Shown here: piece by piece, positions 4,600-58,100 of the stretch
How positions within the stretch are numbered: the stretch's first letter is position 1
How the letters are laid out: each line of letters begins with the position of its first letter
NCBI GenBank assembly: GCA_905178155.1
Contig: CAJINV010000006.1
Span: 1,303,876-1,367,875 of the forward strand
Direction of reading: 5' to 3'
Source of the DNA: Amoebophrya sp. A120
Lineage: Eukaryota; Protista; Dinoflagellata
Length of the DNA stretch: 64,000 bases
Translations under genes and position numbers: made by a program
The notes under the pieces: model-generated
What the model was told of the DNA's origin: nothing
Seen by the model: the letters and a program-made list of their open reading frames with translations, nothing else
The model's database searches: none

Positions 4600-5700
4600 G
4601 TGCGAGTATCGATGTCGTCACACGCCTCAGCACAGCAAGGGCGTGATGACGATCAACTCCCGCAGCGGTGGTCTTCTGCATCTACTTCGTCCTCCGCCAG
4701 AAGCGTAGTAGTTTTTCCATCTTCATCCGGGTTCTCCCGTCCCGGGTCCTCACAACTACTGGACCACACGGAAAGTCGTCAACAGAAATCTTGTTCTGCG
4801 CAGAGGATGTCCATGCTGACGCAGGATCAGGTCGAGCGCAAGAAAAGTTTGACAACTGCAGCTAGTGTCATGAATCATTCTTGTGAAGCACGCCCACGAG
4901 GAGAACCAGCAGGGATGCGATTAGAACTACCACAGAACGACGACTCCTACACCGGAGTTCATTGCAGCAGCGCAAGCAGTAGCCGACCCTCATCTGGTAG
5001 ACCAGCACCTGATTTGAGTAGAGAGAAGACTGCTAGTTGTAGCAACATTATCGCGGCCAGTACAAGTTGCTCATGTACTGGCACTGCCACGCTTGTAGAA
5101 AAAGAAACTTCAGTCTGTAGTTCGTGTGTTCACTGCACTACAACATCTCGCGGTCTCGCCGGACCAGGGCAAGAGGGTCGTGCATCTTCTGTACGAAATC
5201 ATTCTCGTGAACACGTCGGCCACGAAGTTTTGGAGCCGTGCTGTTCGCGAAAGAGACCAGTACAAGAAACGTCACAACTGCAGCACCAGCACATCATTGG
5301 GAAAGGGATAAAAAGTGTAACTACCAGTACCAGCTCACCAGCGTCAACAGTGACAAGAACAGCCCGCCCCTTCTTCTCGGACAGCACCAGATCACTTTTC
5401 AAATCAAAACTGTGGTCACGACTAGAAGGACTAAAACTGTTCTTGCCGGCGCGAACGTACAATAATCTCATACGGGAGGAGACAGAAGCTAAGGAGACGA
5501 GCAGAAGTAAAACTGAGGGAACTACTGCCGCAACAAGCTCGATGCAGGACAAAGAGAAGACGAAATCAACTAGAAAGAACTCATTTTCAACAGGGGCAAC
5601 AGATTTGTTTTTTTTGTGGGTTGGTTCGCGGCGTCACGTGGGCCGACACCTCTGCTGCTGCTGCTGCCGCGGTAAGAATGAAGAGTTGTGCCGCTTCTAG
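4600..5700 (+). CDS. Ser-rich hypothetical ORF, copy 2
   Basis: 366-aa ORF; frame stays open despite many indels relative to copies 1 and 3. Confidence 0.4.
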   Translation: MRVSMSSHASAQQGRDDDQLPQRWSSASTSSSARSVVVFPSSSGFSRPGSSQLLDHTESRQQKSCSAQRMSMLTQDQVERKKSLTTAASVMNHSCEARPRGEPAGMRLELPQNDDSYTGVHCSSASSSRPSSGRPAPDLSREKTASCSNIIAASTSCSCTGTATLVEKETSVCSSCVHCTTTSRGLAGPGQEGRASSVRNHSREHVGHEVLEPCCSRKRPVQETSQLQHQHIIGKGIKSVTTSTSSPASTVTRTARPFFSDSTRSLFKSKLWSRLEGLKLFLPARTYNNLIREETEAKETSRSKTEGTTAATSSMQDKEKTKSTRKNSFSTGATDLFFLWVGSRRHVGRHLCCCCCRGKNEELCRF

Positions 5701-6138
5701 GTGGTAGAAGATCAAGATGGAGAGATTTACACTGAAGTCGAAGTGTCTTCCGGAAAGAGTGACAGGGCGACAGAAGAGTTTTTTTTCCCTGTTTCGCGAT
5801 ACCAGATAGAGAGGAAACCGCGTGATTTTCTTTCCGTTGTTGAGCGCAGAGTGGTGGAGGTCCTCTGCGACGTAAGTAGGTGTACCTACTACAGCGTAGC
5901 GCTGAGAGCGAGGTAGTATGAATGTTTTGAGTAGACACTATTAGATAGAAAAACCAGTTTGTTGTAGCTACTAGCGCCAGTCCTCGTTCATTTCGTTGAT
6001 CTTCCTGTTGTGTTGATTTTGCGTGTTTTCCTCCTGGAGCAGGTCTAGTACTTCTTCACATTGAGCTGTCAAAGGAGTCATGTGTCGTGGTGTCGAGGAT
6101 CCTCGTCACAAATAAATCTCTGAAACGGGCGAGTATCG

Positions 6139-7209
6139 ATGTTGTCGCACGCGGCCTCAGCAGATGTCCTCTGCGGAGAACCGCCAGCAGCATTGCAAGG
6201 GCATGCTCACAGCCCGCAGAGGTTGTCTTCTGCATCTACTTACTCCGCCAGAAGTTGTGTAGTAGCCTTCCCAACATCGTCCGGGTTCTCCAGTCCTCCC
6301 GGATCGTCTTCACAACGACTGGACCAGCACACGGAAACAGCTTGTGAAAAGAAGTCGCATTCTGCGCCGGGGATGGTGACGCAGGTGGATCAGGACGCAC
6401 GAAGGAGGACAAGTTTCGCGAATGCCACTGTCATGAGTCATTCTTGTGAAGCTGCACGACCACGAGAAGAGCCAGCAGGGGCGATGCAATTAGAACTACC
6501 ACAGATGAACGACGACATCTTCTCCTGCACCGGGAAAATTCACTGCAACAGCAACAGCCGATCCTCAATTTCTTGTACCCGACGGGATTTGAGTAGTAGG
6601 GAAGAGACTGGTAGTTGTTGGCGTCGCAACGTCGCTACCAGTGCAAGAAGTTGGTCATCTTCCACTCTTGTAGAAGAGGCTCCTTTGGTCTGTAGTTCGC
6701 TTGTTCGCTGCACTACATTTCGTGGCGTCGGACGACCAGGGCAAGAAGGTGGTGCAGCTTCCGTTCCAAATCATCAATCTCGTGAACACGTCGGCCACGA
6801 AGTTTTAGAACCCTCTCGCCAACAACAGCGAAAGATGCAGCAAGCAACGTCGCAACTGCAGGACCTCGAGCACGTCGTTGGGAAGAGGATAAAAAGCGCA
6901 ACCGGTTCACCCGTAGTTTCAACTACAGTGAAAACAGCCCGCCCCAGCTCCTGCTCGGACAGTAGATCACTTTTCAAATCAACAATGTGGTCACGACTAG
7001 AAGGGCCGCTGAAGAGACTTTTCTTACCGGTGCGAAAGTACAACAATCTCATCCGGCAGAAGAACGAAGCTAAGGAAACGAGCAGAAGTAGAACCCAAGG
7101 AGCTTCTACTGTCTCAGCCAGCTCGATGCAGGACAAAGAGAAGACGAAATCAACTAGAAAGAACTCATTTTCAACAGGGGCAACAACCGCAGCAAAAACC
7201 ACTGCGACC
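6139..7209 (+). CDS. Ser-rich hypothetical ORF, copy 3 (reads in frame into the next gene)
   Basis: Paralog of copies 1 and 2; no stop before ATG 7210. Confidence 0.35.
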
Positions 7210-10200
7210 ATGTTTTTCTTTCTCGCATCTTCAATTATCATCCCTGAAGCATCCGCCTCGGCCTTGCTTTCTTCTTTAAACCTCGACGACTGCCAGTGCG
7301 CGGTGGAAGACGGAAGGTGTCCGAACGGGTACTCCTGCCACTGCGAAAAGCCGAAGGATATTCTGGGCGATCCCTACGACTGCGCGACGGATACTAAGTG
7401 CTACAACCCGGTGTGTATCATGTGCAAGTATGTCTGGGTCTGGAAGAATGCATGTTTGTCATGCTTGTCGGGCATGACTCTTAAGTCTGTGATGCACGGC
7501 ACCCAAGAGCTCCACTGTTCTGTCATGCAGAAACGCAGTTTGTCATGCAGAATAGGCAACACCTAGAAGCTCAGAAACTTGTCATCCTGAGCCAGCACTT
7601 GTGGCCTCCTCATGATACGCCACCCAGCATCACAAGTTTCCAGACCCAGACGCAGACACATTTGCAATGCATAGTGCGCCCGGCCGGGTACTGGAAGTGC
7701 TGCTTCGACTGCGAATACAATTCCTGCGCGTTCTATGGATGTGTCAGGATCGAAATCGACAAAGTCGAGAAATTTGTGATGCACAAAATGTAGGGCACTG
7801 AAGGCCTGTATTGGGCAGCAGGCAAATGAAACCGATTGTAAGCCTGTTTAGGGGCGGTATGCAATGCGCTGCCAGAGTAGCATGACAGGAGCAGTCTTCT
7901 TTGCCTAGACAGCATGACATACTGGCCTTGGGTGCTCCCGAAATTTGTCATGCGCCGCTTGGAAACTGAGGCTCCAACTGGTATCGATTTTGTGCATCAC
8001 AAATTTTTCGACTTTGTCAATTTCGATTCTGACACCTCCATACTTTCCAAGACGGGTTTTACATCCAGTCGCCGTCTTATGAGAGTGCACAACTTGTTCC
8101 CCTCCCCCTCATTTGTCATGCAAAAACCCCAAATCCAAGTGATAATTCCATGTGGCATTGTTTGCATGACAGATTCCGGAAGCCCAACCAGTACTACGCT
8201 AGGCGCATGAATCTGTCATGCACAGGCTCCGCGTGTGCTGGTGTTTGTCGTGCTGTTCATGCAATACAAATGAGGGGGAGTTCGGAGTTGTGCACTGTCA
8301 TACGTCGTTCCAGCAAGCCAGCTTTCTCCGGCCCTTCTGGCTCGAGGAAGCCATCGTCACCCACGTGACGGATCCGAGTGCAGATTCCAGTGGCGGCTAT
8401 GAATTGCAAAAGTTAAAGTAGCGTACAAGTAGTCAAAATTGCAATACAAACTAGCGCAGCACGACTAATTGAATTTCTTGTAGCCATTTTGGCTCAAGAT
8501 CCCTTTGAAATTCTCACCTCACCAATAAATCGGTGGGTGGGGGGGTCTTCGAGTTTTTTACTCTTACCACAGCGGCACCGTGTAGAGGTAGTTGACATTT
8601 TACTGAATGAGAGACGTAGAACGCAGCTACAATTTACACCGCACTAGAAACAAGTTGGTAGATTGAGTAGGCTACGATCATAACGCAAACAGACACTGAA
8701 TGCGAAAACTACAACTCACTTATAAAAACTACACATATTCAAAATACGCAACTCAGAAATAAGACTAGAAATACGCAAGCCCATCCATAAAAACAAAAAA
8801 ATCTAAAAACAAAAAAATAAACTCAATATATGCGCGCAACGCTAACGGGGAAAAGCCGCGAACCTTACCAAGACAAGCGGAACAGAGACGCGACTACTTC
8901 CAGACCAAGAACTTCGGAGCTTGAACATTGTGGACTTCAGATTTCGCATCTTCGACTTCAGAAAGAGCTGCAGAAAACCGCGACCGCCAAAAGCAAGTCT
9001 CGGGCGCCGTACATTGATAAGAGCAGGCAGCAGAAGACTTCGCCACAGCAAAAAGCCAGGGCCGGCCACAAAGCAAGGGCAACTAGTAACACGCGACGCA
9101 TTGGGCTCGCTGTCATTTTGCCTGCGTTCGAAGTCGGCGAGAGCGAAGCAAGAGAGGACCGCTGATACAGAATGAAAGGAGAGCGGCTGCGAATGTGAAT
9201 GGAGCAGGAAAAGATAGCAGTAACTGGAACAAAAGTTCCGCCCTTTATAGTGAAGATGGAGGATAGGCGGGAGATGAGTCCTGCTCAAGTCGTTTGCTAC
9301 TTTGCTTAGCCCACCATAAAACTTCCGGGGACGACTTGATGAGGATTGAGGACAGCTGTGTTACATTTCGTCGAGCCGCTTGCTACTTTGCTTAGCCCAC
9401 CATAAAAACATCCGGGGGCGACTCAATGAAAAGGACATAGCAAGAACAGCTTCACTATATTTATTATTTAACCCCGTGCTGGGTAATACTACTACTACTA
9501 CTTGTCATGCTGATGTACCTTAATACGGCAGAATTGTCATGCACGGCTGCAATTAGATGACTTACTACGAGCACGATACTTTTGCACAGGATAGCGGCAG
9601 TTCCTCGGCGAACTCCGACACCGGTTCTGCTGTGTACTCCTCCGACCGAATCGGCCCGGCGGCCAACAACGGCGCGGCCAGTGCGCTGTCCGGCATCACC
9701 AACGTGCAACGTGCCGACGCGGGGACGCCCCTCACTCCCGTGGTGAAAGAAAACATCAAGCCGCCCATCGTCTCCGGGACGGACTACCACGGTGCTATCA
9801 ACGGCATGCACGGGGGTCGGGAGCTGAACCTGATGAACACGGAGCTCACGCTATCCTGAGTAAAAACGTTCCCACACCAGAGTTGTCATGCAAATCTGCA
9901 TGCCAAAAAAGTTTGTCATGCGGAGCGCCATGAGAGGCATTTTCTAGCCGTGTTTTGGAATTTGTCATGCTACAATCAGCGTGATATACTAGATCTGTGA
10001 TGCTGCTGAACTACCTAAACAGGATTGCACTAGTACGAGGACAAACTTGTCATGCCAAATGACCAAAGCTGGCTGATTTGTCTAGCAGATTTCCCATCGT
10101 GACTCTGGTGTGGGGACGTTTTTACAAATGATACACACTGAGCTCCCGGGGCCGCATGGAGTGCCTCCCCTGCCGGAAAGGCGACTACTGCATATGCATC

Positions 10201-12835: not shown

Positions 12836-13992
12836 GGAAAACAAGACGCAGGTTCAAGTTGATCTATCGGATTTTTGCTTCGAAGATGAAATGTACTGAG
12901 TCAGCAAATTCGATATCGTTTTTGTAGTACTGAGAAATTAATGGACAACATTAACAAGAGGTGGAAGTAGCAAGTAGTAGTAGTAGTACAAGCACGCAAG
13001 GCAGAAGTAAAAGTGAAAGTCGTTTAGTCGCGAAAAAAGCTGGCAGATGAAGATCAAAACTAAAGGGTCAGACTGTGAATAAAATCGAAAGTGCGGCGAG
13101 CTCCTCAAAAAGCCCGCGTGTGCGTTTTAACCGATTGCAAAAATCGTAATATGGAACGCTGAAGAATAAATAGGAACTGGTCTCAAAACAGGCATCAAAC
13201 GTTAATTAAAGTACTTATACATAGAATATCAGATGAGCTAGGCAAACAGTACACAAAATCATGTAGGGCTAGAACACCCCAGTTGCAATCGACGAAAAAG
13301 ACGAAATAAATCAATTTGAATGACGCAGCGGAAAAATCAAGAGCTTTGTAAGTATAGTGATTTTTGCGTTGAAACTGCAGTTTATTATGCTGCCACGAGG
13401 CGATAATTCGAATTCCTGTAGATAATCGCGATGTTGTTGCACAGCAATTATTCCGTGTCCGCTACGCTGAGGCATTCATAGCAATCGCACATTGAAAAAG
13501 GAAATGAACTCCACAAACTCGGTCACTGCTCAACACCAAAGGCAGAAACTCGGTTGTGCGCTGCATCCGACGATGCTGCAGCAATGCTGGTACAAGATAC
13601 CACTGAATTTCGGTCGTGATTATACGTATGCAATTGCGGTGCCAGGAACAACTGCTGCAATCGGACCACCCGTGGCTGTCAAGAGTCGACTTCAACGATG
13701 ATCTGGAATTGATAGATGGATGTTTCTTTTCTCTACTTTTCGAATTTCACTAGTGCAAATAAAAGGATTCGACCACTACCACTTCAAAACAGCGGCCTCT
13801 GAAAAATTGTAAAATCTATCATCTGTGGTCAAGAACATAACCTGACGACCCTTCCTTATTCACAACACCACAAAAGTTTTATTTGTTTTTCATTTTCATC
13901 CATCGACGTCGATTTTTCCATCTAGTATTGAACACCAATAACCACATACTACTACACCAAGCGAAGAACCGACTCCTTCAACACACCACAAA

Positions 13993-43200: not shown

Positions 43201-46200
43201 GGAGGGGGAGTTGTGCGCAGTCATATAGAGTACGACGATTTCAAAAACGCCCGTCCGCTGTGCTGCGACTTCAACACCGGCGCAGGTAGGGCGAACGGAA
43301 ATGCTGGCACGAATGCAAGTGGTACGTCTGCGGTGGGAGGAGGAGGTGTTGCCTCTTCATCTCCATCTGCAGCCACTGGTACGACCACCGGAGCTGATAG
43401 CACGGTCACAGGAACAAGCTATGCTGTTCTCAAACGTTACATTCTCAACTGTTACAAACATGATTACTATCTAAACTGCAGCAGCTGGTCAAAAATGCAG
43501 GCGAGGGGTATGTTCTGGGGTATGTTCGGGGGTGTGTCAGGGGTATGCAAATGGCCGTCAATCACAGGCGGAATGCAATTTTTTGGCGAAAAAGCAACAG
43601 GTGGGGTATAAACATACCCCAGACACACCCCAGACACACCCCAGACACACCCCAGACATACCCCAGACAGACCCCCGAACACACCCCAGGCAAAAAGTCC
43701 GAACATACCCCAGACACACCCCGGACACACCCCGGGCCGACTTTCCGACACACCCCGGGCAGACTTTAGGACACACCCCGGACACACTTTGGGACCTCGC
43801 CACGCGAGATGTGCAATGGCGGACTCCAGTTTGTCACGCAGGCCGCCAGCCTGTCGAGCTTCCCGGGCCCCGTTGGCAAGGCCCAGGGACGAAAGGCGCC
43901 CTCGGTCAGCGCGGGGGCCCGGTCCCCGCGTCATGACCTGGGGGCCAGCTTTGGGCGCTTCCCGGACACCGTACGGCCCAGGGGCAAAAGCCCTAGGTCA
44001 GCGCGGGGACTCGGTCCTCGCGTCATGACCTAGGGGCCAGCTTTGGGCGCTTATATCCCGGAAACCACCCGCACGGCCCAGGAGGTACAAAAGCCCTAGG
44101 TCAGCGCGGGGACTCGGTCCCCGCGCCATGACCTAGGGGCCAGCTTTGGGCGCTTCCCGGAAACTAACCGGCCGCACGGCCGAGGAGCAAAGGCCCTAGG
44201 TCAGCGCGGGGACTCGGTCCCCGCGTCATGACCTGGGGGCCAGCTTTGGGCGCTTCCCGGAAACTAACCGCACGGCCCAGGGGCAAAAGCCCTAGGTCAG
44301 CGCGGGGACTCGGTCCCCGCGTCATGACCTAGGGGCCAGCTTTGGGCGCTTCCCGGAAACTAACCGCACGGCCCAGGGACAAAAGCCCTAGGTCAGCGCG
44401 GGGACTCGGTCCCCGCGTCATGACCTAGGGGCCAGCTGCAGATCCAGCGCCAGACTCTTCCTTTCTGTTCTCTTTGTTCGCGGTAGGTTAACGGGCCTAG
44501 TGTGGGCAAGCAGAGGGGCTCCGTCCGCAGATCTGTCGTGGATCAGGGGACGCAGGCCACACAGAAACACCGGGCTGCAGTGGTCTGCCTGCCCAGTGCC
44601 ACCACAACCCCCGAACTCGTCCCAGAGAAATGCCGGAAGGTCGCCGCATGGGGACTCTGTCCCCGTGCTCGGACCTTGTTTGTCATGCAAAATGACCATG
44701 ACCCGTCAGACGATCAAGCTGCTTCGCATGACAAATTCTCGCAAGGCTGAATAGCACTGTAATCCGGATCAAACCTGTAATGCAAGACGCGCAAGGTTCC
44801 CCCTCTCACCTGTGCTAGTCTCGCATCACAAATTTATGTAAGAGTTGAGAATGTAACGTTTGAGAACGCCATACAAGCCACCTCCTCGTTGTGGGGTTCG
44901 ATAACGGGATGTGTGCGATGTACGAAGTGTATCAAGTGGAGAAAAAAATCACGGAAGAACAGCATTCATCTGCTGTAGAAGAAGCTCCTTCTGCAGGCGA
45001 GGACTCTACTTCGTCTTCTCAGACCTCCGAGGACACGACGAACACCCCCACTGGGGAAGTAGAGAACAACAAGAAACCCGTATCAAATGTAAAAATGTAT
45101 GGGTCTGGAAGAATGCAAGATTTGCGATGCACGTTTTCCATGACCCATGAGGTCTGGAATGCGAGACCCAGCATGACAGATTCTTTGCGGTCTCTATCAT
45201 GCCTTTCCTGCATGAGAAACTCTCTCTCAACTTGGTCGAAAGTGGACACCTTTTGGCACTCATGCAACACAGATTTCTGCATGATTCAGATTCAGCATGA
45301 CAAGCTGCAACCGTCCACCCCCAGACATTTTTACATTTGATAACCCGGAACTACAACCGAAACTGGCAAGGACACCAGCGAGACCACAGAAGATGCAGCT
45401 GATATTGTGAGGAAAAATCCCCCCTCCCCATATCGAGAGCGGAATTTGTGTTGCTCCTGTATTTGAGTACACAAATCACATCTGTCTTGCTGGAGAGGAC
45501 TGCAGACCCATACCAAGCCTGAGCACAGAGGCTTTGACTTAGGCGCTTAGCATGAAAAGCGTCCGTGATGTAGGCTCAACAGCATGACAAACCGCCTCCA
45601 TAATGGGACGAAAGCTGCTGCCCTTGTCTTCTTGCAACACAAACGTGATTTGTGACCTCAAATCAGCAACACAAATTTTCGAAAACCTACCTCTTCAATA
45701 TGGGGGGGGGATTTTTCCTTGCGGTAGCTGACACGGAGATGAAACTGAAAGACAAAGAGTCTGACCACGACGGGAAAGAAACAAAAGACAAGGAAAAGGA
45801 TGCAGCTGCTGCTGAAACAGAAACTGGAAGTGCAGAGAAAGGTGATGATAACAAGGAGAAAGCGAGCACTACTAGTACTACTACTTCAGGATCATCATCA
45901 TCATCATCATCTACGTCTCCAACCAGTACTGGCAATGACAAAATCGTCGTAGTCCAGAAGGTGTGGCAGATCAAGCGGCTTCGGCACATCGAGTATTGCA
46001 AGGAAAAATTCCCTCTCCCCATATTGAAAACGCATCGGTCTGAAAATTTGTCATGCACATTTGTGACCACAAATCGGGTCTGTCTTGCACAGAGGCAATC
46101 TCAGGCTGTCCGCCACGTTATGCAGGCGGTTTGTATGTAGTGAGGTCACCGAACGGTTCTAACCGGGGAGTTTTTTTGACACCCAGACAGCAAAACGGCC

Positions 46201-48137
46201 GCCAGTTTTCAAGCGGGCGGAAGCGTTTTTGGACGTAAAAAATTTTCAAGTATCAAGCGGCCGGGGCTTTGATAGCAAACAAGCCCGGTCGAAAACTATC
46301 GATTCGCACTTGATAAAACGACGCAGGAGAGCCGGCAAAAGGGGCGCCCTTCGGAGGCGCCCACCGCCTTAGTTTCTGGCGATTTGGGGCTCCCAAAAAG
46401 GGGCGCGCAAAAAACACGCCCAAAAACAGAACAGCGAAACAGCCTGGCACGGCCGCGATTTCGGAGCATTCTGGGCGGCCGCGAAAGCGGTTGCCTTTTC
46501 GCCGGTTTTAGAGCCTGGGAAGCTTTGCAAAAAGCGCCGACGTGAAAAATAAAAACGCGAAAAATAAAAAGCGCCCCCGACGCGCAAAGCCAATCCGCAT
46601 GCTATGGGCCCGGTTTTTCTTCGCTTTTTGGGCGCCCCCCGTGGCACCCGGATCGGCCCCATAGCATCGGGGCTGGCTTTCGGAAAGGAATTTTGGAAAT
46701 GTGCCAAAATTTGCGACGCTTCCCAAGTGGCCGCCATACCGTGCGGCATAACCTTACTCACGGCGGTATGGCGAGCCCATAAAAAGCAAAGCCGCGGCCA
46801 AGGCGGCGGCCGGCAAAAAAACGCCCACGACCTCACTACCCCCGCCCCGGCGGCTATATTTGGTAATGCTGTAAGGCCTACGGGGCAGCCGTCTACCATG
46901 CTAGGCGCCTACACCAGAAGGCCCCTATCTAGGCTTGCGATGTGCGTGCAATCCTCTACTGCAGGACCAATCTGATTTGTGTACGCAAATGCAGCATCAC
47001 AGATTTCTTTGGCGATATGGGGAGGGGGGACTTTTCCTCTCAATATCGAGGTGGCCACTTTCATGCACAATCGAGAGCGGGGACAGACTATGCATTGCAA
47101 ATATGTCTGGGTCTGGAAGGATGCAACTTGTCATGCTGTCATTGGATTCCAAGAAAATCTGTGTTGCATGACCAGCAAGAGGAATCCAGTCTGTGCTACG
47201 TGGAGAGGGCATTTCTCCTGTGGAATAGGCGTCAGGAAGCCCTTCAAAAATCTGTGATGCTACGTCATGCATCACAGACGTCATGGGTCATGGAAAATAT
47301 GCATGACAAACCTGGCATTTTTCCAGACCCAGACATTTTTGCATTTGATACAGACGAATGCCCACGGCAGCCAACACGCGGCTTGTTTCACGGTCAGGTC
47401 GATTTTGCCAAACGTGGTGGCCGCGGGATTTGGGGATGGATTCCGCCTGATCGACGTTTCTGCAGTCACGGGGAAAGAGGTATCTAGAATTTAGAATTTC
47501 GTTTTGTAGTCATGCTGAATCGGCATACTGCGTGGCCTTTGTCATGCTTGAAGGCAGCAAAAATCGTCAATATGATAAAAATACAGATCTGCGCTTTCGA
47601 CGGTTTATCCGACCGACTTTCCGGGAACCCGAACCCCCACTTAAAGAACAAAAAGTCTTACCTGACAAGCTCCCACTCTAAAACTTTGGTCGGGTACGAC
47701 GCGGTGACTGGGCGGTTGATCCTGGGCGACCGGCTGACGGGAAAAGTGGTGATGTGGTGCTTGAAGCAGCGAAAAATCGTGCAGGAGATCACCTGCTTCG
47801 ATTCCGAAATTTCCAGCTTACTCCTCGGTGTCGAAGATGTTTTGTTCGTCGGCGGAAGAAGCGTCGGGAATAACATCGGAGAGGACGATGACGATTTTGA
47901 AGTATCCTGTGCAAAAGTATCGAACTCGTAGTAATTGCTATCATGCATGACAAATATCCCTTTTTAGGTAAATCAGCATTACAAATTCCACTTTTCTTCT
48001 TGACAAAATTTGTGATGCAATTTATACTAGTACGATACTTTTGCAATGCATATGAAAACGGTAACAACAATGCGGTAACCACGGGAATTGGGAAAAACGA
48101 TATTTTTGGAGGGCACATCCGAATTTTGACAAGATAG
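40275..48137 (+). CDS. Striatin-family protein (N-terminal coiled coil plus C-terminal WD40), 13 exons
   Basis: QEKLNQDLRKRVKMLEYLLRRERQ matches the striatin coiled coil. WD40-like LVSGSEDGIVCLFD, FLTADAAGDLVLWKI, LVVGFDNGMCAMYEV. Nine introners plus GT-AG introns 41558-41680, 42467-42614, 47480-47586. Confidence 0.82.
40562..40782. mobile_element. Introner family D
   Basis: TSD gcgaa/tcgta (degenerate). Confidence 0.85.
41783..42017. mobile_element. Introner family B with ~80-bp nested insert
   Basis: TACgaattgcaaaag...cttttgcagtgcATA; TSD degenerate. Confidence 0.8.
43007..43225. mobile_element. Introner family D
   Basis: TSD tggaa/tagag. Confidence 0.85.
43610..43790. repeat. 11-bp minisatellite (acacaccccag)n
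   Basis: Multiple imperfect copies; inverted relatives ggggtatgttc at ~43505-43547. Confidence 0.85.
43898..44438. repeat. ~97-bp tandem repeat, ~6 copies, each with a long hairpin
   Basis: ccctaggtca-gcgcgggga-ctcgg-tccccgcg-tca-tgacctaggg at ~43991, 44094, 44194, 44290, 44386. Confidence 0.92.
45081..45342. mobile_element. Introner family A
   Basis: TSD acccg/acccg. Confidence 0.9.
45403..45726. mobile_element. Introner family C (GTA end)
   Basis: TSD gctga/gctga. Confidence 0.9.
45994..47045. mobile_element. Introner family C enlarged by a ~730-bp insert
   Basis: TSD tcgag/tcgag. Confidence 0.9.
46136..46863 (+). mobile_element. Nested non-autonomous element with asymmetric inverted repeats (Helitron2/Helentron-like)
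   Basis: gtagtgaggtc (46137) / gacctcactac (46829), then ccgcc-cc-ggcgg hairpin near the right end. Confidence 0.5.
47089..47350. mobile_element. Introner family A
   Basis: TSD cagac/cagac. Confidence 0.9.
47903..48052. mobile_element. Introner family B, reverse orientation
   Basis: TSD tgaag/tgaaa. Confidence 0.9.
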
Positions 48138-49014
48138 AAGTTTCTTCTTGTTTCAACTTGACAAGTATACAAGATAGAAGTTTTACGGGGGGATTGATGC
48201 AACTTTTTGCAAGCCGGCTAGAACGACACAATAAAGCGAGACTCTAAAAAGTTGTTGTAGAGACTCTAAAAAGCTGAAGAAACATGCGAAATTCAGGTTG
48301 AGAAAAATCGCTCAAGCTGTAAAAATGATCTTCATCTTGCTTACGAAGAACACTGCTGCCTGTAAAAAATTTTTCAATTTGACTTCGTCTATGATAGATA
48401 AGTTTGTGATCCTATGAATGGTGCTGTGAAAGAACTACGGGGTCTTGTTGTATTCTTCATCGGTCACTCATGTCGCTGGATGAGGCACCTTGTGTTGCAC
48501 GACAGTGCACTGGGTACTGTATGAAACGCTACAACCATTTAAAATTTTGCAACTGCGACAGGTATAGTACTTTGTCACTCAGTATAATTCTCTGCGGTGG
48601 GCATGTTGGTCCAACGACAAAGATAGAGAACCACAAAACTTGATTTCAAAAAATTTTGGGTATAGTAGTTCCAAGCACTACCGCAGTGAAAGCTTCATTG
48701 GCGCAGCTTCATTCGTGGAAATGAACCTGCCGGAGCGAAATTGCTGCGACATTGGAGTTCTTCTTGACATAGTAAGTAAGTACTTTCAACGTTTATTACG
48801 CTTCCCTTGTTCTGGAACGCTCAAGAACCTATTTCGCTCGGTTGAGAAATCGGAATCGGTGTGGACTTCTTGCACACTTTCGGTCCAACATCTTGATGCT
48901 TTAAAAGTACTGGTTTTTATTTGATTTTTCCACAAAATCAAAAACGAGTAGTAGAACTTCAACTTCTCGGTTTTGAAGCTCGGTTTTGAACACTTTCTAT
49001 CTCGTATAGAATGT

Positions 49015-51757
49015 AGCTCGGTTGTTCCGTGGAACATGGACATCAAGACGCCAGTCTTTTGTGTATTGGGCGCAGCTCATGTGGCGCACCGGCTGACGAA
49101 GAGGGCAGGCTGGCACGCAGCGCATGCGGCGCGCGATGATGTTCCTGCGGATAAAGGGCCAAAAGACATCAACGCGAAGGAACAAGACAAGCAAAGGCAG
49201 ACAAACTGCATGCGGGGCAGGCGGGGCGTTAACGAGCAGCGCCCACAACCGTGTGGCCGGCGCCGAAGCCCGCCAGCCTGCGCTCGCTCTTAGATTATGG
49301 CCATGCAGATTGCGTTGTGGCTGTGCGCGTCTGCGCCTCCCCACCTGTGTTGTAGCGTTGTCTCTTTGGTGTGATGGCGGGCCGCTTTGGCGTGGGGCAA
49401 TGCAAAATCCTAGAAGCGGCCGGGGGGCCAAAGGATGAGCGACAAAGAAAAGAGAGTCCATCCGGGCCACTAAAGAACGAAAACGAAAAAGCGAAACAAG
49501 GAAAGAAAAGAGGCCCGCGGCGCCAGTCAGTTCTCCTTTGTCTGTGTGTGCTTGTCTTGATGCCAATCCGGGGTCGGTGCCTCCGCACATAGCGAAAAAA
49601 AGCAAGAAGGCCCCGCGTTGCTTTGGTGTGGATCGATGTGGAGGCCTTTTGTGCCAAAGGCCGCCGCCTCTACTCTCGCGGGCCATCATCGTCGTGCTCA
49701 CTGGTCAAGATGCCTCATGGGCCAGCTAGTTCGTAGACGCTGGATACAAGGCGGCCCATGCGAGTTTGTTTGCTTTCTTGCGGAGGCGTGGGCGCCCCAA
49801 GTGCAAGAACTGCAACGCCCACTGTTCGCATTCGTGCAATCATAAAAAAAAAGCTGCCAGATGGAAAAGATCTCGAGACCAAAACACAAAGACCTGCGGC
49901 CTTTGAGCGCAACGAGTCAGTGCTCTGCCGAATTCGCACCCACTCAATTTATAGAAAAAATTATCTATTTTTATCGCTAGCAAAATCCGGAATTAAGGAC
50001 TTTTGTCCGGCCATAGGTTGTTCCGTGTAACATGGACATCAAGACGATCATGCTTAGGAACGGCTGACAGGGGGGCAGGAAAAAAGATGGCGGCGGGCGC
50101 CCAGGAAGCTCACAAGGGCAACAGGGGCGGAATCGGGGGCGAAAGGGCGCCCGGCCCGTTGCATCTCTTCGGCTGTGGGTCCCGAAGCGGCACCGCCGTC
50201 GGCCGGAGTGCTCGGCACCGACTGGGCCCCGGGCCGCCTCGCTTGGGGCGGCCGTTGTTTCTCGGTGGAGCGTTGCGCGCCGGCGCCGCCCCGGGACATA
50301 CAAGATGGCGCGCCAAACGGCGGGCCCGTGCAGCAGACCGCGCAACTTCAGGAATGCGGCGCAGCCTCCGGCAATTGACGTTGCTTTACTCACCCCCGGA
50401 GCTGTGTTTTCAGTGTGTTGCCACGGCTTGCTTTTGGTCGCAAGCCAGGCAGCTGAAGCGCCGCGGCTGCCTTCGAATGGTTCGGGCCGGAGGTCTCGGA
50501 TAGGTGCCAGAGTCCTCGGAGCTGTGGCGTTTTTTGCCGCGGAGGGGTTGCGCTTTGGCGCGTCATTTTTTCGGGCTCCCGGCGCGCCCGAAAATCGGTT
50601 TTGTAAATCGCATTGTAAAAGTGTTTTTTCAGCTTTTTGTTTCAAAAAATCGAAAAACGAAAATGCGCGTTTTGTATTTTGTTACAGCATACGGTTGTTC
50701 CGTGTAACATGGACATCAAGACGATCATGCTTTGAAATAAGTAAACTAGCTGTTATCCGTGTGACCGCCATTTTTGATGTTGTACACAGGTAGGTACAGC
50801 GAGAGAATGGTAGACTCTAGTTTCATAAAAAGTGCAAGAAGAAAAGATCGGTTCGTGCACCAGAAGTCGTTCGTGCGCAGACAGACAGACAGAAATATCG
50901 GGTTAGCGAAGGGTGCAGATGGACCACGTTTCCGTCGGTGAAGGTACCGCTTTTCGTACACAGTATGGAAAAGTAAAAGCGTGTAGCGGCCGTGCAGGCA
51001 CGGGAAAAGTAGAACGATAGATAAGAAACAGAATTTTTCGTGGCGGGCCGAGATTGTACTCAAAAAATTTGTACAGGGAAGAGGCAAGGAAAGAAAGTAG
51101 AAGGGAACCCCCCTCCCCAGGGTAGGAAAAGAAAGGGCGGCCCCGGCTCGCGATGGCCCGTTCGCCCAGGGCAGCAGGGCGCGCGTGCTACCGCGTGCGG
51201 GCCAGAAAGCGGAGGAGGCTGCTTGTAGGCGTAGGATCGTAGCGGCGGGCGGGTAGGCGTAGGGCCAGTCAGCGGCGGGCGGCTCCATTGTCCGCCCCTT
51301 AGTCAGTGGCGGCCCCTTGGTCAGCGGCGGCCACCGGGTTACTTAGGGGCGGCCGGACTCACGAGTCAGCGGCGCGCGGTCCATCGGGCCGGGGGTTGCC
51401 CGGCTGGTTCCACAGGCGGGGCCGCGGGCTGGCTGGCTGGTTGAGGTTGGCCTGGCCCTCATAGGAAATGGCGCCCGGAAGCAAAAGAGCGCCCGGCAGG
51501 CGCAAGCCTGCCCTCGGGCAGTAGCTTTGCAACGCTCAACCTCTGGAGCCTTCGCGCACAGATGCTTGCTTTACACGTCCCGGCTCCGCAGCCTACGCAG
51601 CTCGTCCCAGTGCCGAGGCCTACGCAGCAAGGGTTTCAGGGTTAAAAGGTTTAGTTTAGGGCTCCTATCATGATTTTAACCACCAAGAACGACTCCGACA
51701 GCTCGGTTGTTCCGTGTAACATGGACATCAAGACGATCATGCTTTGAAATAAGTAAA
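49015..51757. repeat. Four direct repeats (36, 40, 54, 58 bp) separated by three GC-rich inserts (965, 636, 954 bp)
   Basis: Core ggttgttccgtgtaacatggacatcaagacg (one mismatch in copy 1) at 49015-49050, 50016-50055, 50692-50745, 51700-51757. Confidence 0.92.
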
Positions 51758-52185
51758 TTCTTTCGGTCGGAAGTTATAATTCTTTCGGTCCCTCTCGTCC
51801 AGCACAAAACCCTTCGTCGCAGATTAAGGCGGTCAACATCAACAGACAGTCATCTAAGTCCATCCCTACTGGTATGACAAGAACTACTACCCATCATGAT
51901 TATATCAGAAACAAAAAAACAACCCGCGCTGTAGTCCCCCCTGAAAGAATTTAGAATAGTAAAGCGCGCAGATGTTGAATGAATCGAAGAAGGAAATTGC
52001 ACCTTCTTCACCCGTTCAAGTAGATCTCCCCTACAACTGCAGGGTACAGCTGCCGTTTCCTGCAGTTTTTCTTCCCTAGATGTGTTATTTCAAAAAGAAA
52101 GAGCTTAAGTAAGTAGGCAAAGTACGGCTACGGCATTCGTATAAATATTATCAAAAACAAAACACAATAGTACATCGCAAAGATC

Positions 52186-55100
52186 ATGTCGGGGGCTGGA
52201 CATAACCCGAGCACGCTGAACTCCACCAGCCTGGTGGGCAGCGATGGCTACAACGAAAAGCAATACACTGCCTTGCGGGAGCCGCGAGGAGATGGAAGTG
52301 AACTCTTGCCACTCGATTACTTCAGGAATTCCACGGCCTCCGTGACATGTATGGGAGTGTCAGGATCGAAATCGACAAAATCGAAAAATTTGTCATGCAC
52401 AAAATGTAGAGCACTGAAGGCCTGTGTTGGGGAGCAGGCATATGGGACCGATTGCGAGCCTGTTTAGGCGTATGCAATGTGGTACCAGAGTAGCATGACA
52501 GGAGCAGCCTTCTTTGCCCAAACAGCATGACAGACTGGATTTGGGTGCTCCCGCAATTTGTCATGCGCCACTTGGAAACTGAGGCCCCAACTGGCATCGA
52601 TTTTGTGCATCACAAGTTTTTCGATTTTGTCGATGTCGATCCTGACACTCTCATAACATGTCCCGTCTACGCCTACTACAAATACCAGCCGCAGGTGGCC
52701 GAGGTTTGCCTGCACTGCCCCCGCATTGTCCGGCTCTGGCAGGACAAGAAAGACGACCCGAACGCCCGGCAGCAGGCGTCCAAGCTTATCAGATGAATGC
52801 ACAAGAACTTCAACTCCCCCTCACTTGTAATGCAAAACACCAACAAATCCACGCGTTGCCTGTGCCTCTTGGCACTGTTCGCATGACAAGTTCTGGCAGG
52901 GCCCAAATGGCACTACACTCCTGTGCAATAAATTTGTCATGCAAATAAACCTGCACTATTGCTGACGCTCCTTGTATTGCAGTTCATGCCATACAAATGA
53001 GGGGAGGGGGAGAAGTTGTGCACTGTTATAAAGCTACTGGGCGTGTCCGAAGCGGCGCTGGAGAAAAAGGGCGTGCCCCTATGCATTGCAAATTTGTCTA
53101 GGTGTGGAAGTAGAGTTCCAACTTGTCATGCAAAGTCTGGATCACGGGAACAAAATCTATGTTGTTGCGCGATTGCCATCAAAAGGTGCCAAGGGTTGAA
53201 CAAGTTGAGAGGGAGTAGTTGCTTCTCTTGCAGCACAGGCATGATGCAGTGACAGGTCTCAACACAAAATGTGTCATGCTACGACCTGCAGCATTCCCGA
53301 CCTTAATAAGGTTGAGAACAATGCTGCAGGTCCTAGCATGATAGGACCTGCGTGACAAGTCTTGCAAATGCAATCCCCCATCCCCAGACATGTTTGCGTT
53401 TGCCGTGGATAGCTTGCCGGCATGATCTGCCGGGAGGGGGGGCTGAAGCTGTGCCGTGCGGGCTACTACTGTCCAGACGTGGGTACGGAGCTCCAGGCGC
53501 CGAAGGGCTTTTACACGCGCTCCGGCTGGACTGAGCCCCGAGAATGTATCGGGCCCACGTGGCTGCGCGTATGAACTGCAAAAGTATCCGATACTTGTAT
53601 CAATGCATTACAAATTTGAATTTCATCCTCAGCATGAGAAATAAAATTTGTAGTGCGGATTTACTTTAGCAAAGGGATTTGTAATACATGATTGCAATAC
53701 GAGTGCGATACTGTTGCAATGCATAGCGCGACTGCCATACCAACTACCGGGAGCCGCCCTGGCAGGAGCGTGGGACCTTCTTTTCCGCTATCACAGGAAA
53801 AAGCGTTAACGTTAACGGAGTTTGTGATGCAGTAATGCATCACAAAACGTGCCAAGATTTCTCATGCATAGCATGCACGCTAGGCAAAATTTGTGATGCA
53901 TATTTGCAATCTATGAAAACCGTGAACGTTAACACTTTTTTGTTTGATATCCGCCTTTTTTGCGGAGCCGGTGATAGTCGAAAACTATTCCAACTTACCC
54001 ACCAAGCTGAAAACCACCAAGGGCTACTCGGCGCCGGAGATCCACGACGAATTGTTTTGGCTCCTCGCGGTCTTCATCTTCCTGATGGGTGTTTTTTCAA
54101 TATTTTGCCTGCAAACCTTTCGCGAGTACGTGATGAGCGGCAAACTGCCCCGGTCCTGGGAACAGTATGGATTGCAAAAGTATCGTTATGTATAAATTGC
54201 ATCACAAATTTCGGCAAGAACAGAAGTGGAATTTGTAATGCTGTTTCAGCGATTTCGATTTGGAAAGAGATTTGCCATGCATGATAACTGCAATTATCTA
54301 CTTATACGAGTGCGACACTTTTGCAGTGGATAAAGAGATCAAAAAAGCCTATCTCCCCGGCGGTAGTCACAAGCGGTCTGGCAAGCGTCGAGACAAACAG
54401 TTTCAGAGGCGGTATCAAATGTAAAAATGTCTGGGTCTTGAAAGTTGGAGCTTGTAATGCTAGCTTTACATTACTGGAAAATCTGTATAATTGCATAAGG
54501 AACAAGGGACGCAGCTACTTTTGTCATGCAAGAACGCAGTTTCTCATGCGGAATTTCTATGAGAAAGCATTCTGGAAAGTTGTCATGCTGGGCTGCATTC
54601 GGAAGTGTTTCCATCATCCACATTTTAGCATCACAAGTTTCCAGACCCAGACATTTTTGCATTTGATAGGCGGCGGGACCGGCTGAAAGCCTTTGTCTCG
54701 GACCACGACAAGAATTTTACGGAGGGGGATGCGGATATCGCAAGAAAAAAACTGTTTCACTGTAAACGTGCAATGCAGAAAATGCATCACAGAAGTGTTT
54801 GTCTCGCTACACATGCAAGACAAGCCGTGTGTTTTTCCCTTTGAGGGATCCTCACATGGCCAGTTTTCTTTGTCATGTGTAGTAACAGAGTTGTAAGGCC
54901 AAACTTGCAGAAATTTTGCAGCAAAATCCATACAGCGAGACAGTTTTTTCGTACGATAGCGGAGGATGACGAAGTTTATCACCTCCGCGACCTAGAGGAG
55001 GAGCTGTTGCACATGCTGGGCTACGAGCTAAAGGAAGAGAATCTCCTGGTGGAGACGGGCCTGCTGCAACATAATCAAGGTCACCAGCATCTAGTATCGA

Positions 55101-58100
55101 CGGTGGTGGACGACCCAAGTCATGTTGGCGGAAGAAGCGTCAAGAACAAGATTAAAAAACCTTCCGGAGATGTTAAAGGGGAGCAAGCGACGGGGGAAGA
55201 ACTCGTCTTGCAGGACAACTACTCATCTTCCGCTCTTCCTCCAGGGTCTTTCTCTGTGACGAAACGGGCTGAAGGAAGTGCGGTGGTCGAAGCGGGTGAT
55301 AATATCCTACTTGATGGAGTGGTTGTAGAAGACAACGACCTGTCCTATACCCCGCTCAGGTGTTACAATCTCAAACGTTACGAATAGAATAATGGAAATC
55401 TGTGTTGCCAGAGTGCATGATCTAGCCAACTCTCATAGGATTGCGCATGACAAGTTCCGGAGTCGGGAGTCCCAAACCCCACTACAATCTGGCGAAATTT
55501 GTATTGCAGAAAGTGGAACGCTCTGCGAGTCTGTCATGCTCATCATGCAACACAAAACCCAGATTCTATTGTAAAGTTTGAGATTGTAACGTTTGAGCAG
55601 GTCATATGTCCTTTCACAGTGGCGAAGAGGGCGAGGAAGAGGAAGATGAAGAACAATGCCAGCAGGACCGAGAAACCTCCGACCAGCATGATGTTGTCCA
55701 ATTTATGCCTTCATCTTCCCGCTCGAAAAATCCGAAAGCTGAGGGCGAGCAGGCGGCCTTGTCAACAACCTCTTCGAAGCAGGGCAATATCAGTGTTATT
55801 TCTGCGAAATCCCGTGCGATGCAGGTGCAGCAAAAACAGCAGGCCGCACGGGCCGCTGCGGGAACAGTGTCAGTGTCGATGAATCCAAATGCAACAGTAG
55901 CTTCCGTTGCAGCTGGTGGAACTTTTCCCAAGAAGGTGCGGTTAATCAATGAAGTGGATGTTGAAAAACAACCGTCCCGACTGCGTCACGAAGAAGGGGT
56001 GGAACTACAGCCGGTAAGAACAACATCTTCCAAGCCTTCTATGTCCTCTCCAAGGACAGAAATATCAAAACCTGTTCCAGTCGATGTAGGAGCCCACAGC
56101 TCCGATGAAGAGCCCGTCGTCCCCCCAGCCCTGCGCATCACGTTTGAAGACCTGGACTTCACGGTCGGACCGTATCAACTGTAAAAATGTCTGGGTTTGG
56201 AAGAATGCAAGTTTGTCATGCTTGTCTGGCATGACTCGAGAATGTGTGTTGCTTGGGCACGAAAAACCCTCTTACCTGTCATGCGAAAACGCAGTTTGCC
56301 ATGCGGAACACGTAAGACATGGTTTGTATGATGAGGTCGCCGAAAGTGCTGCCTCGCCCACCCCCCGGCGAGGGGATCCTTGACCTGTGGCGCTGGGTGC
56401 GGGTGTCCACTACATGATGATGACGTAAGACATGGCAGCCAAAAAATTTGTCATGCGTAGCTGCGTATTGCAGTGCGTCTACCATTCATTTTTAGCATTA
56501 CAAGTTTCCAGAGCCAGACCCAGACATTTTTGCATTTGATAGACCGAAAGCCGTGCTGAAATCGGTCAAAGGCTCCTTCGCCCCCGGCTCCCTCGTCGCG
56601 GTGATGGGCGCTTCCGGGGTATCGCGAGGAAAAAGCCCCCCTCCCCATATTGATGACAAGGTACGTTTTCGGAAATTTGTGTTGCTGTTTTGTGGCCACA
56701 AATCACGCCTGTCTTGCAAGGAGGCAACCCCACAGACAACCGCCGCGCTATGCGTTCGCTTTGTCGTGCTGTTGGGCCTACAGGAGCACGGACGTTTTTC
56801 ATGCTAGGCGCCTAGGCCAGAGCCTCTCTACTCAGGCTTGATATGGGTCATCTGCAGTCCTCTCCAGCAAGACAAAGCTGATTTGTGTACGCAGGTCCGG
56901 CGTCAGAAGTTTCGTTTTTATGTGGGGAGGGGGGATTTTTCGTTTTGATATTGGGCGGGAAAAACCTCCTTTGTGAATGTCGTGGCAAACAAACTCCAGT
57001 CTTACGCAAATGCCGGGCAGTTACGAATCGACGGGCAAATCCGGCTGGGGCTCGTGGAGGACGGCTGTCAACAGTTCCCGTCCGAGGTTGGCTACGTTCC
57101 GCAAGACAATGTGATGTTTGACGAACTTTCGGTGTGGGCCAACCTCTATTTCGCCGCCAAGCTTCGCATGCCGAAGGGGACCGAGGACCATAAGATCCGC
57201 AAAACGGTCGACAACGTGCTGAAGATTCTGGAAATCGATCATGTCCGGAATAGTCTAGTCGGTGGCGTGGAGCAACGGGGGATATCTGGCGGGGAGAAGA
57301 AACGGGTGAGTATCGGAATGGAGTTGGTCGCATTACCACGCGTGCTGTTTCTCGATGAGCCGACGTCCGGTTTGGACGCGGCGGCTTCCATGAATGTCTG
57401 CCGATGCTTACGAAGATTGCGGAAATTCAATGTTACCACGGTCTGTGTCATCCACCAACCACGGCAGTCGGCTTTCTTACTCTTCGACCAGTTGCTGTTA
57501 TTGGCGAAGGGACAAGTGGTGTATCTCGGGTCCCCGTTTGGCGCCATCGAGTACTTCATCCGGCTCGGGTTCCCGTTCACCACCGGGGAGAATGCGGCCG
57601 ACTGGGTGTTGGACGTGCTGGAGGGGTTACACACTTGTCGCTTCGACGACAAGGGAAATCGGGCGATCGACTACGCAGCGGAGCTATCCTGTGCAACAGC
57701 ATCGTACTCGTACTAGACGCAGTCACGCAAGACAAATTTCTTAGTCAAGCTAAATCAGCATGAGAAATTTCATTTGTTGTGCTGAGCTAATTTGTATTGC
57801 AATCCTACCACGAGTACGATACTTTTGCAGTTCATAGGAGCAGTCCGGAAACAACGACAATGGTGCCCGAGGTGCACCGGGCACGAAGAAATCCCTGAAA
57901 GTGATCATTTATCCTGAGTAAAAACGTCCCCACACGACCAGAGTTAAGATGGAAAATCTGCTAGACAAATCGACCAGCTTTGGTTATTTCGCATGACAAG
58001 TTTCGATCCTCGTAGTGTAGTCCTCGTTTTAGCTAGTTCAGCAGCATCACAGATCTAGCGCATCGTGCTGGTTCTAGCATCGCAAACCCCATCAAAACGT

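What the first reader, a model, noticed from the sequence alone, without database searches (positions are those of the whole stretch)
49015..51757. Polarised capture array: three different 0.6-1 kb sequences apparently inserted serially into one 58-bp site
Seen: the full site agctcggttgttccgtgtaacatggacatcaagacgatcatgctttgaaataagtaaa occurs at 51700-51757, and the three upstream copies are nested truncations. The pattern fits insert 50746-51699 arriving first (58-bp duplication), then 50056-50691 (41 bp), then 49051-50015 (31 bp), each into the left-most copy. Right junctions fall within 5 bp of each other (two end in cata), while left junctions vary. The inserts are GC-rich, show no similarity to each other by eye and have no recognisable ORF. 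Known: site-specific non-LTR retrotransposons of the CRE/SLACS type make long TSDs at a fixed nick. Inference: a sequence-specific integration system that loads diverse cargo at a fixed address, giving a repeat-spacer architecture reminiscent of CRISPR or integron arrays. No enzyme is encoded here.
Basis: partly seen in the sequence, partly recalled or inferred. Interest (0 to 1): 0.88.

Follow-up and report, generated by a model that had tools for sequence, protein, structure and literature searches.

The report
Three transposon scraps stacked at hotspot
Three unrelated pieces of repeated DNA sit stacked at one spot between two genes of what is likely a parasitic dinoflagellate, each flanked by copies of the landing site; two end like the host's own jumping introns, so this is likely a pile-up of transposon insertions joined properly at only one end, not a CRISPR-like capture system.

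Summary
The array is real: four nested copies of one 58-bp site (positions 1-36, 6-45, 5-58, 1-58) separate three mutually unrelated inserts of 965, 636 and 954 bp, implying duplications of 31, 41 and 57-58 bp whose right junctions fall within 5 bp. The host is a eukaryote full of TAT..ATA introner transposons with 5-bp duplications (Amoebophrya-like, inferred). The inserts are not unique cargo: public-run contigs hold diverged relatives of all three, and two contigs leave insert 2 exactly at its right end into DNA that is not the site, so its family is not tied to this address. The right ends of inserts 1 and 2 score in the top 0.1% of a matrix of introner termini; no left end begins like one, though insert 2's left junction sits in a 5-bp match to its inverted right end. 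Best reading (0.45): repeated one-ended insertion by the introner-type transposase with host repair of the other end, at a hotspot in a motif-rich spacer. Target-primed retrotransposition is the main rival (0.27); a CRISPR- or integron-like system is unlikely (0.04). No enzyme, RNA family or multicopy target was found.

The parts
49015..49050 (+). Target copy 1, site positions 1-36, continuous with the left flank; one mismatch at position 18
   Evidence: spanned by X1 contig 48027-49722
49051..50015 (+). Insert 1 (965 bp). Right 312+ bp shared with a second near-identical copy; no relative of the left 640 bp was laid; right end introner-like (TTTTGT-N5-CATA), preceded by an inward-facing terminus-like motif at 49972
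   Evidence: (contig 49693-50004, depth 77, 3 differences)
50016..50055 (+). Target copy 2, positions 6-45 (31-bp duplication on the left, 41-bp on the right)
50050..50054 (+). 5-bp match (ATGCT) between the target and bases 2-6 of insert 2's inverted right end, ending 1 bp before the left junction: candidate microhomology by which a full-length left end was joined (inferred)
   Evidence: motif frequency 0.0012-0.0015 per base; post hoc, 1 of 3 inserts
50056..50691 (+). Insert 2 (636 bp), member of a dispersed family with relatives about 5-13% diverged; right end fixed at 50691 and introner-like
   Evidence: pieces with 10/184, 22/270, 25+6 gaps/229 differences; two contigs leave at 50691 into other DNA (agreement 0.62)
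50692..50745 (+). Target copy 3, positions 5-58
   Evidence: X3 contig 50693-50995
50746..51699 (+). Insert 3 (954 bp; 955 if the next A is counted, then ending ACA), the oldest insertion; diverged relatives elsewhere; 18- and 28-bp internal tandem repeats; right end does not fit the introner matrix
50747..50765 (+). Imperfect copy of the start of the target at the head of insert 3 (possible templated filler or decayed older copy)
   Evidence: score 21, p 0.009 against random window 25-mers; 1 of 3 inserts
51630..51661 (+). Degenerate telomere-like (TTTAGGG-type) tract near the right end of insert 3; varies among relatives
   Evidence: loose end at 51645; telomere motif from PMC7789003 passage
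51700..51757 (+). Target copy 4, full 58 bp, continuous with the right flank
   Evidence: X1 contig 51728-52375
48838..51789 (+). Cluster of 8 same-strand TCGGT motifs in the reconstructed 628-bp empty spacer (48838, 48856, 48880, 48967, 48980, 49018, 51763, 51785); all three right junctions fall at or in the sixth
   Evidence: 8 seen, 0.44 expected, Poisson p 2e-8 (best of all 5-mers, so about 2e-5 corrected); none on the other strand

Best explanation
Three unrelated repeat-family sequences sit in one spot between nested copies of a 58-bp target, and they likely arrived one after another by one-ended transposition: the host's introner-type (TAT..ATA) transposase likely joined only the right end to the target, and host repair likely attached the other end further along, duplicating 31-57 bp. 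Shown: nested duplications, right junctions within 5 bp, dispersed relatives, an element-defined right end for insert 2, introner-like right ends for inserts 1 and 2, no introner-like left ends, no enzyme in the window. Inferred: the transposase (encoded elsewhere or lost) attacks the top strand at target positions 2-6; the freed target 3' end is extended and joined to the element's unprocessed or truncated left end (for insert 2 through a 5-bp microhomology); because only the left copy keeps the upstream flank and the cut site together, the next insertion lands there again, giving polarity without any dedicated acquisition machinery. The hotspot is likely set by the motif-rich spacer upstream of an ABCG transporter gene. 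Insert 3, the founder, fits less well and may be a break-repair capture.
For: Right ends of inserts 1 and 2 score 10.5 and 10.1 on a matrix from 43 introner ends, top 0.1% of all window positions (128 and 133 of about 128,000), inside the training range 2.9 to median 13.6; they share TTTTGT-N5-CATA, the only 2 matches in the window (0.16 expected; 2 of 100 shuffles reach 2). Window introners have TAT..ATA ends, 18 of 27 filtered elements with exact 5-bp duplications, CATA the commonest end (15 of 26). Two contigs leave exactly at 50691 into other DNA. Exact-match contigs of insert 2 (187, 142, 173 nt; depth 39-47) and insert 3 (924 nt; depth 44) have the depth of the flanks (42-47) whereas a true second copy doubles it (77), so no near-identical template is seen, although the duplications differ at only 1 of 129 bp (upper bound 4.2%): this suits cut-and-paste better than copying. 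Precedent: retroviral DNA with one end joined by integrase and the other by host enzymes is often truncated at the aberrant end with a longer host duplication (PMC5041404, passages). Three junctions within 5 bp by chance: 2e-4 even within the spacer alone.
Against: Needs three aberrant events at one spot, all with the good end on the same side and all giving duplications, while the window's catalogued introners insert normally with 5-bp duplications and no second long-duplication insertion appears in the window. Insert 3's right end does not fit the matrix (score -13.9). The insert 1/2 motif is one base longer than the common introner motif, and the matrix was trained on ends selected for TAT/ATA. 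In the retroviral precedent duplications are usually hundreds to thousands of bp, not 31-57. Depth rising towards the right ends (299, 485, 378 against about 45) and a second insert-1 copy that stops at 49693 equally fit 5' truncation by reverse transcription. Contig depth is a rough measure and the tool drops records (the long flank contig was missing), so 'no template' is suggestive only. No transposase was identified and no whole genome was available.
Confidence: 0.45

Rival explanations
1. Target-primed reverse transcription: a non-LTR retrotransposon enzyme acting in trans nicks the bottom strand at positions 2-6, copies non-coding RNAs (SINE-like RNAs, or spliced-out introner RNAs, which would end at ATA) from their 3' end, stops early, and makes a variable second nick 31-57 bp downstream.
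For: Fixed first junction, variable second junction, one orientation and right-end-rich depth are the standard footprint; CRE and R4 elements make target duplications and R9 an exceptionally long one (PMC3636483, passages and a reference title); non-LTR elements are reported in Amoebophrya (PMC7789003); a spliced-leader-like tract at 8480-8498 hints at retroposition in this genome (identification recalled).
Against: No poly(A) or simple-repeat tail on any insert; no significant 3' structure (z -1.8 to +1.6 in 18 folds) and no hammerhead core; no near-identical template seen; other insert-2 ends are not in this site; the target is not a recognised or multicopy RNA gene.
Confidence: 0.27
2. One complex repair event: a break or stalled fork at this site was mended by iterative template switching, copying target, jumping to a transposon cut at its end elsewhere, and returning to nearly the same restart point three times.
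For: Restart points (6, 5, 2) and run lengths (36, 45, 58) change monotonically; microhomology at insert 2's left junction; imperfect target copy at the head of insert 3; copies almost undiverged (1 of 129 bp).
Against: The monotonic pattern also follows from serial insertion into the left copy; three unrelated donors in one event is demanding.
Confidence: 0.12
3. A dedicated, sequence-specific capture system (CRISPR- or integron-like) that loads cargo at this address.
For: Polarised repeat-insert architecture and a strand-biased motif cluster at the cut.
Against: Repeats shrink rather than being regenerated; inserts are dispersed repeats, and insert 2's family lands elsewhere; no enzyme among 26 of 26 ORFs of 200 aa or more; no second array in the window; site absent from viral and metagenome collections.
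Confidence: 0.04
4. Rolling-circle (Helitron/IS91-like) one-ended transposition, with one fixed and one variable end.
For: Fixed right ends, variable left ends; insert 3 read on the minus strand ends in CTAG before a T.
Against: Helitrons make no target duplication (PMC12130899 passage); no significant subterminal hairpin.
Confidence: 0.04
5. Assembly artefact joining repeat families through the shared 40-54 bp sequence.
For: No listed contig spans the array; the three right junctions were not among the pieces shown; the order of inserts 2 and 3 cannot be resolved by 31-mers.
Against: Left junctions are crossed by exact contigs at single-copy depth in X1/X2 and by X3 contigs; each copy has its own start and end; copy 1 has a private mismatch within an unbranched contig.
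Confidence: 0.04

Closest known systems
Amoebophrya introner elements (non-autonomous TIR DNA transposons; PMC7789003, PMC12130899, PMC11282704)
   Same: Same kind of terminus at the right end of inserts 1 and 2; non-coding, dispersed; same window holds dozens with TAT..ATA ends.
   Different: Introners have two inverted ends and 3-5 bp direct repeats; these inserts have one such end, 31-57 bp duplications, are intergenic and stack at one site.
Aberrant one-ended retroviral integration (ASLV end mutants, HIV with suboptimal inhibitors; PMC5041404)
   Same: One precise enzyme-made junction, other end often truncated and joined by host enzymes with a longer target duplication.
   Different: There the duplications are usually hundreds to thousands of bp, sites are scattered and the events are induced; here they are 31-57 bp, natural and at one site.
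IS481EU / IS481 / IS1202 and IS3EU/GingerRoot DDE transposons (PMC10045372)
   Same: TNT..AYA or TA..TA termini; IS481EU and IS1202 make long duplications (about 15 and 24-29 bp) in steps of about 10 bp; 31 and 41 differ by 10.
   Different: Those have two TIR ends and a transposase; 57-58 does not fit the 10-bp series; no transposase here.
Site-specific non-LTR retrotransposons CRE1/SLACS, R4, R9 (PMC3636483)
   Same: Fixed first junction with target duplication.
   Different: They target multicopy RNA genes and encode RT plus endonuclease; here the target is a single-depth spacer, inserts are unrelated and non-coding, have no A tail, and relatives lie at other sites.
CRISPR arrays and integron cassette arrays
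   Same: Polarised alternation of a repeated sequence with unrelated inserts.
   Different: Repeat not conserved in length or regenerated, inserts are 0.6-1 kb genomic repeats, no Cas1 or integrase, eukaryotic host (defining features recalled).

Membership tests
Introner / TIR DNA transposon (TAT..ATA type) | Introner-type terminus | tested here: met
   Right ends of inserts 1 and 2 in top 0.1% of matrix scores; insert 3 not (2 of 3)
Introner / TIR DNA transposon (TAT..ATA type) | Two terminal inverted repeats | tested here: not met
   End-versus-end alignment scores 17-20, at chance level; only a 5-bp match at insert 2's left junction
Introner / TIR DNA transposon (TAT..ATA type) | 3-5 bp target duplication | tested here: not met
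   31, 41, 57-58 bp against 5 bp in 18 of 27 window elements
Introner / TIR DNA transposon (TAT..ATA type) | Dispersed copies sharing the same end | tested here: met
   Two contigs leave at 50691; relatives of all three inserts
Introner / TIR DNA transposon (TAT..ATA type) | Two-ended, short-duplication members of the same families elsewhere | not testable with these tools
CRE/SLACS-type site-specific non-LTR retrotransposon | RT and endonuclease ORF | tested here: not met
   No Pfam hit in 20 of 30 frames of 60 aa or more over the array nor RT/transposase in 26 of 26 window ORFs of 200 aa or more; a non-autonomous partner is not excluded
CRE/SLACS-type site-specific non-LTR retrotransposon | Multicopy conserved RNA-gene target | tested here: not met
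   Flanks at single depth; no Rfam match at the site; the only spliced-leader-like tract is 40 kb away
CRE/SLACS-type site-specific non-LTR retrotransposon | All family copies at the same target | tested here: not met
   Insert 2: two other ends run into DNA not on the stretch; not shown for inserts 1 and 3
Non-LTR retroelement (SINE-like, TPRT) | Poly(A) or simple-repeat 3' tail | tested here: not met
   Ends printed
Non-LTR retroelement (SINE-like, TPRT) | 5' truncation with fixed 3' end | tested here: inconclusive
   Depth peaks at right ends and second insert-1 copy starting at 49693, also explained by shared TIR ends
Non-LTR retroelement (SINE-like, TPRT) | Transcribed source copy | tested here: inconclusive
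   No near-identical template seen in contigs; RNA run X8 gave no test
IS481EU | TNT..AYA ends on both sides, duplications of about 4, 15 or 25 bp, DDE transposase | tested here: not met
   AYA at right ends only (ATA, ATA, ACA); lengths 31/41/57; no transposase
Helitron | No target duplication; subterminal hairpin | tested here: not met
CRISPR / integron array | Constant-length regenerated repeat with a linked integrase | tested here: not met
   Copies of 36, 40, 54, 58 bp; no such enzyme

The most novel reading that the evidence does not exclude
Inserts 1 and 2 represent an undescribed mode of eukaryotic transposition that is routine, not accidental: non-coding elements with one introner-type end are joined at a motif-marked promoter position, a 30-60 bp duplication regenerates the target on the left, and unrelated families accumulate in order as a polarised array, giving dinoflagellate parasites a recurring insertion record upstream of genes.
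Probability: 0.17. Interest if true: 0.72.

Novelty: new variant of a known kind. Interest (0 to 1): 0.38.

Why it matters
The enzyme that spreads Amoebophrya introners is unidentified (PMC7789003 found no transposase in one strain; PMC11282704 says insertion mechanisms are not known). Insertions with one introner-type end and a long duplication are footprints of a half-finished reaction and would constrain that chemistry (integrase-like strand transfer versus reverse transcription of excised intron RNA). Three hits within 5 bp also point to a targeting determinant that can be mapped. If the locus is only a rare pile-up, it is a curiosity and a caution: repeat-spacer architecture can arise with no acquisition system.

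Tried and rejected
No whole genome held. Exact-pattern scans found nothing: site in viral contigs and metagenome contigs; insert 2 end in metagenome and viral contigs; insert 1 end in viral contigs. Rfam: 3 weak miRNA-family matches outside the array at E up to 1 in 44000-56000, none at gathering score in the window; no tRNA. X4 (RNA only by guess) has no contig over 48670-49713 and short pieces on the inserts: not used as evidence on expression. Homolog search of the ABC exon gave eukaryotic ABCG-type proteins but did not name the host. Five short motifs were absent from 13 of 14 supplements of PMC12130899 searched, but so was a common introner end, so those files hold no usable sequences. 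A target resembling a spliced-leader or snRNA gene: rejected. Repeat as the inserts' own terminus: rejected for insert 2. Folding of insert ends and of the empty site: nothing beyond shuffles. Earlier-scan look-ups by sequence and place returned nothing. Paper searches for this footprint in the host group found no description; the library lacks most subscription papers, including the Curr Biol introner study, and PMC1317513 was not held.

Full report
Observation. Numbering the full site 51700-51757 as 1-58, the copies cover 1-36 (one mismatch), 6-45, 5-58 and 1-58. Removing inserts with one copy of each duplication restores a single site, with duplications of 31, 41 and 57-58 bp and right junctions at positions 6, 5 and 1-2. 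The inserts are unrelated to each other in 6 of 6 alignments against shuffles, and none has matching inverted ends. Three junctions within 5 bp would arise by chance at about 2e-4 even if confined to the 628-bp spacer.

Host and context. No genome was available. The window is eukaryotic: exons are cut by short elements with TAT..ATA inverted ends; 27 of 77 candidate pairs passed a duplication filter, 18 of the 27 with an exact 5-bp duplication (the filter required TAT and ATA). This matches the introners described for Amoebophrya (PMC7789003, passages: 8-20 nt inverted and 3-5 nt direct repeats), and a 19-nt tract at 8480-8498 matches the dinoflagellate spliced leader as I recall it. The host is therefore inferred to be an Amoebophrya-like dinoflagellate; no call names it. 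The array is intergenic: contigs of run X4 (RNA by guess) cover 48053-48627 and 51940 onward, the latter skipping the introner at 52350-52655; the downstream gene likely includes the ABCG-type exon at 56949-57713 (linkage inferred).

What the inserts are. No Pfam family was hit in 20 of 30 stop-to-stop frames of 60 aa or more over the array, and no RT, integrase or transposase in 26 of 26 window ORFs of 200 aa or more (genes split into shorter exons could be missed). Rfam and ARAGORN found nothing there. Contigs of public runs (7 of 10 listed runs hold part of the stretch) show flanks at depth 42-47 and relatives of all three inserts: a second, 99% identical copy of the right 312 bp of insert 1 (depth 77); insert-2 relatives with 10/184, 22/270 and 25+6/229 differences; pieces related to insert 3 at 50867-51110, 51294-51332 and from 51484. 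Summed depth peaks at the right ends (299, 485, 378), a rough signal only. Two contigs leave the stretch exactly behind 50691 into letters found nowhere on it, with agreement 0.62 as expected of two unrelated flanks (6 of 32 loose ends and 8 of 63 pieces were shown). So insert 2 has an element-defined right end, the repeat is target DNA, and this family also lands outside the site.

Ends. Inserts 1 and 2 share TTTTGT-N5-CATA at their right ends, 10 of 15 identical (0.2% of random pairs), the only two matches in the window. The common introner end is one base shorter (21 plus-strand and 18 minus-strand matches). On a matrix from 43 introner ends both score in the top 0.1% of window positions; insert 3 does not, though it can end in ACA. 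No left end starts with TAT or TGT, but five bases of target just before insert 2's left junction equal bases 2-6 of its inverted right end (frequency about 0.0015 per base; 1 of 3 inserts), and one relative stops matching 12 bp inside that junction: insert 2 may be full length, with its left end joined by microhomology. Insert 3 begins with an imperfect copy of the target start (p 0.009) and carries a degenerate telomere-like tract at 51630-51661. There is no A tail, significant terminal fold or hammerhead core.

Target. The rebuilt empty spacer has 8 TCGGT motifs, all on the plus strand (0.44 expected), and the three right junctions fall at or within the sixth. A smaller cluster of three lies at 13519-13610 upstream of another plus-strand gene, so this may be a promoter motif (inference). 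The contig across copy 1 is unbranched (48027-49722), so no empty allele shows in that sample, though contigs drop rare variants. The site was not found in viral or metagenome collections.

Mechanism. Two known chemistries give a precise right junction, a variable left junction and a long duplication. One-ended strand transfer by a DDE enzyme with host repair of the second end is documented for retroviruses (PMC5041404, passages; PMC7912079, passage); related IS481EU and IS1202 enzymes have TNT..AYA ends and can make 15-29 bp duplications (PMC10045372, passages). Target-primed reverse transcription gives the same outline (PMC3636483, passages). I favour the first (0.45 against 0.27) because two ends are of the host's DNA-transposon type, there are no tails, and exact-match contigs of inserts 2 and 3 have single depth while the duplications have diverged by only 1 of 129 bp, so no recent template is visible. 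Against it: three aberrant events of the same polarity at one spot are needed, insert 3 does not fit, the window shows no other case, and retroviral duplications are usually much longer. A hybrid (reverse transcription of excised introner RNA) is counted with the rival. Polarity needs no special system: only the left copy keeps flank and cut site together. All mechanistic steps are inferred; no enzyme was found.

Comparison and novelty. It works like one-ended integration or site-preferring retrotransposition; it fails the membership tests for intact introners, IS481EU, CRE/SLACS, Helitrons and CRISPR/integron arrays. Searches of the held library found no description of this footprint in the host group; in parts 15-16 of one supplement of PMC12130899 (32 of 58 rows for one strain) the listed duplications were 2-6 bp. 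Earlier AI notes describe serial long-duplication insertions in prokaryotes and truncated LINE tips in other eukaryotes; these are untested leads. Papers were seen as search listings and find-passages only (PMC7789003, PMC12130899 with supplement parts, PMC10045372, PMC7912079, PMC3636483, PMC5041404, PMC11282704), not in full.

Verdict. Observation confirmed; interpretation partly supported. A real, unusual pile-up of mobile-element insertions at one hotspot, most likely a variant footprint of known transposition rather than a cargo-capture system. Interest 0.38; novel case 0.17 at 0.72.

Noticed in passing
window 8480-8498 (+): Tract matching the dinoflagellate spliced leader (15 of 15 in the pattern search, 19 nt by eye; identity recalled), intergenic, not followed by GT: a retroposed relic or the leader gene itself.
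   Followed up: partly
window 46133-46862: GC-rich 730-bp insert nested in introner 45994-47045, with TAT..ATA ends, a 4-bp duplication and an 11-bp inverted repeat offset from the right end: an asymmetric two-ended element of the same general class.
   Followed up: partly
window 43457-44678: About 1.2-kb GC-rich insert inside introner 43420-44873 made of 11-bp and 96-bp tandem repeats; ends not resolved.
   Followed up: partly
whole window, e.g. 45081-45342, 52350-52655, 54413-54668: Dozens of TAT..ATA introners of several families with 5-bp duplications; 52350-52655 is skipped in an X4 contig.
   Followed up: partly
window 49972-50015: The last 44 bp of insert 1 form a miniature two-ended terminus-like unit (matrix scores 12.0 and 10.5) without its own short duplication; a similar forward terminus-like motif lies inside insert 3 at 50964.
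   Followed up: no
window 13519-13610 (+): Second cluster of three TCGGT motifs about 400 bp upstream of a plus-strand ORF; possible promoter motif.
   Followed up: no
window 2170-7185: Three tandem paralogues of a serine-rich ORF (70-82% DNA identity) with no Pfam hit.
   Followed up: no
window 9285-9342 and 9371-9429: Near-tandem 58-bp duplication (86%) in an intergenic stretch.
   Followed up: no
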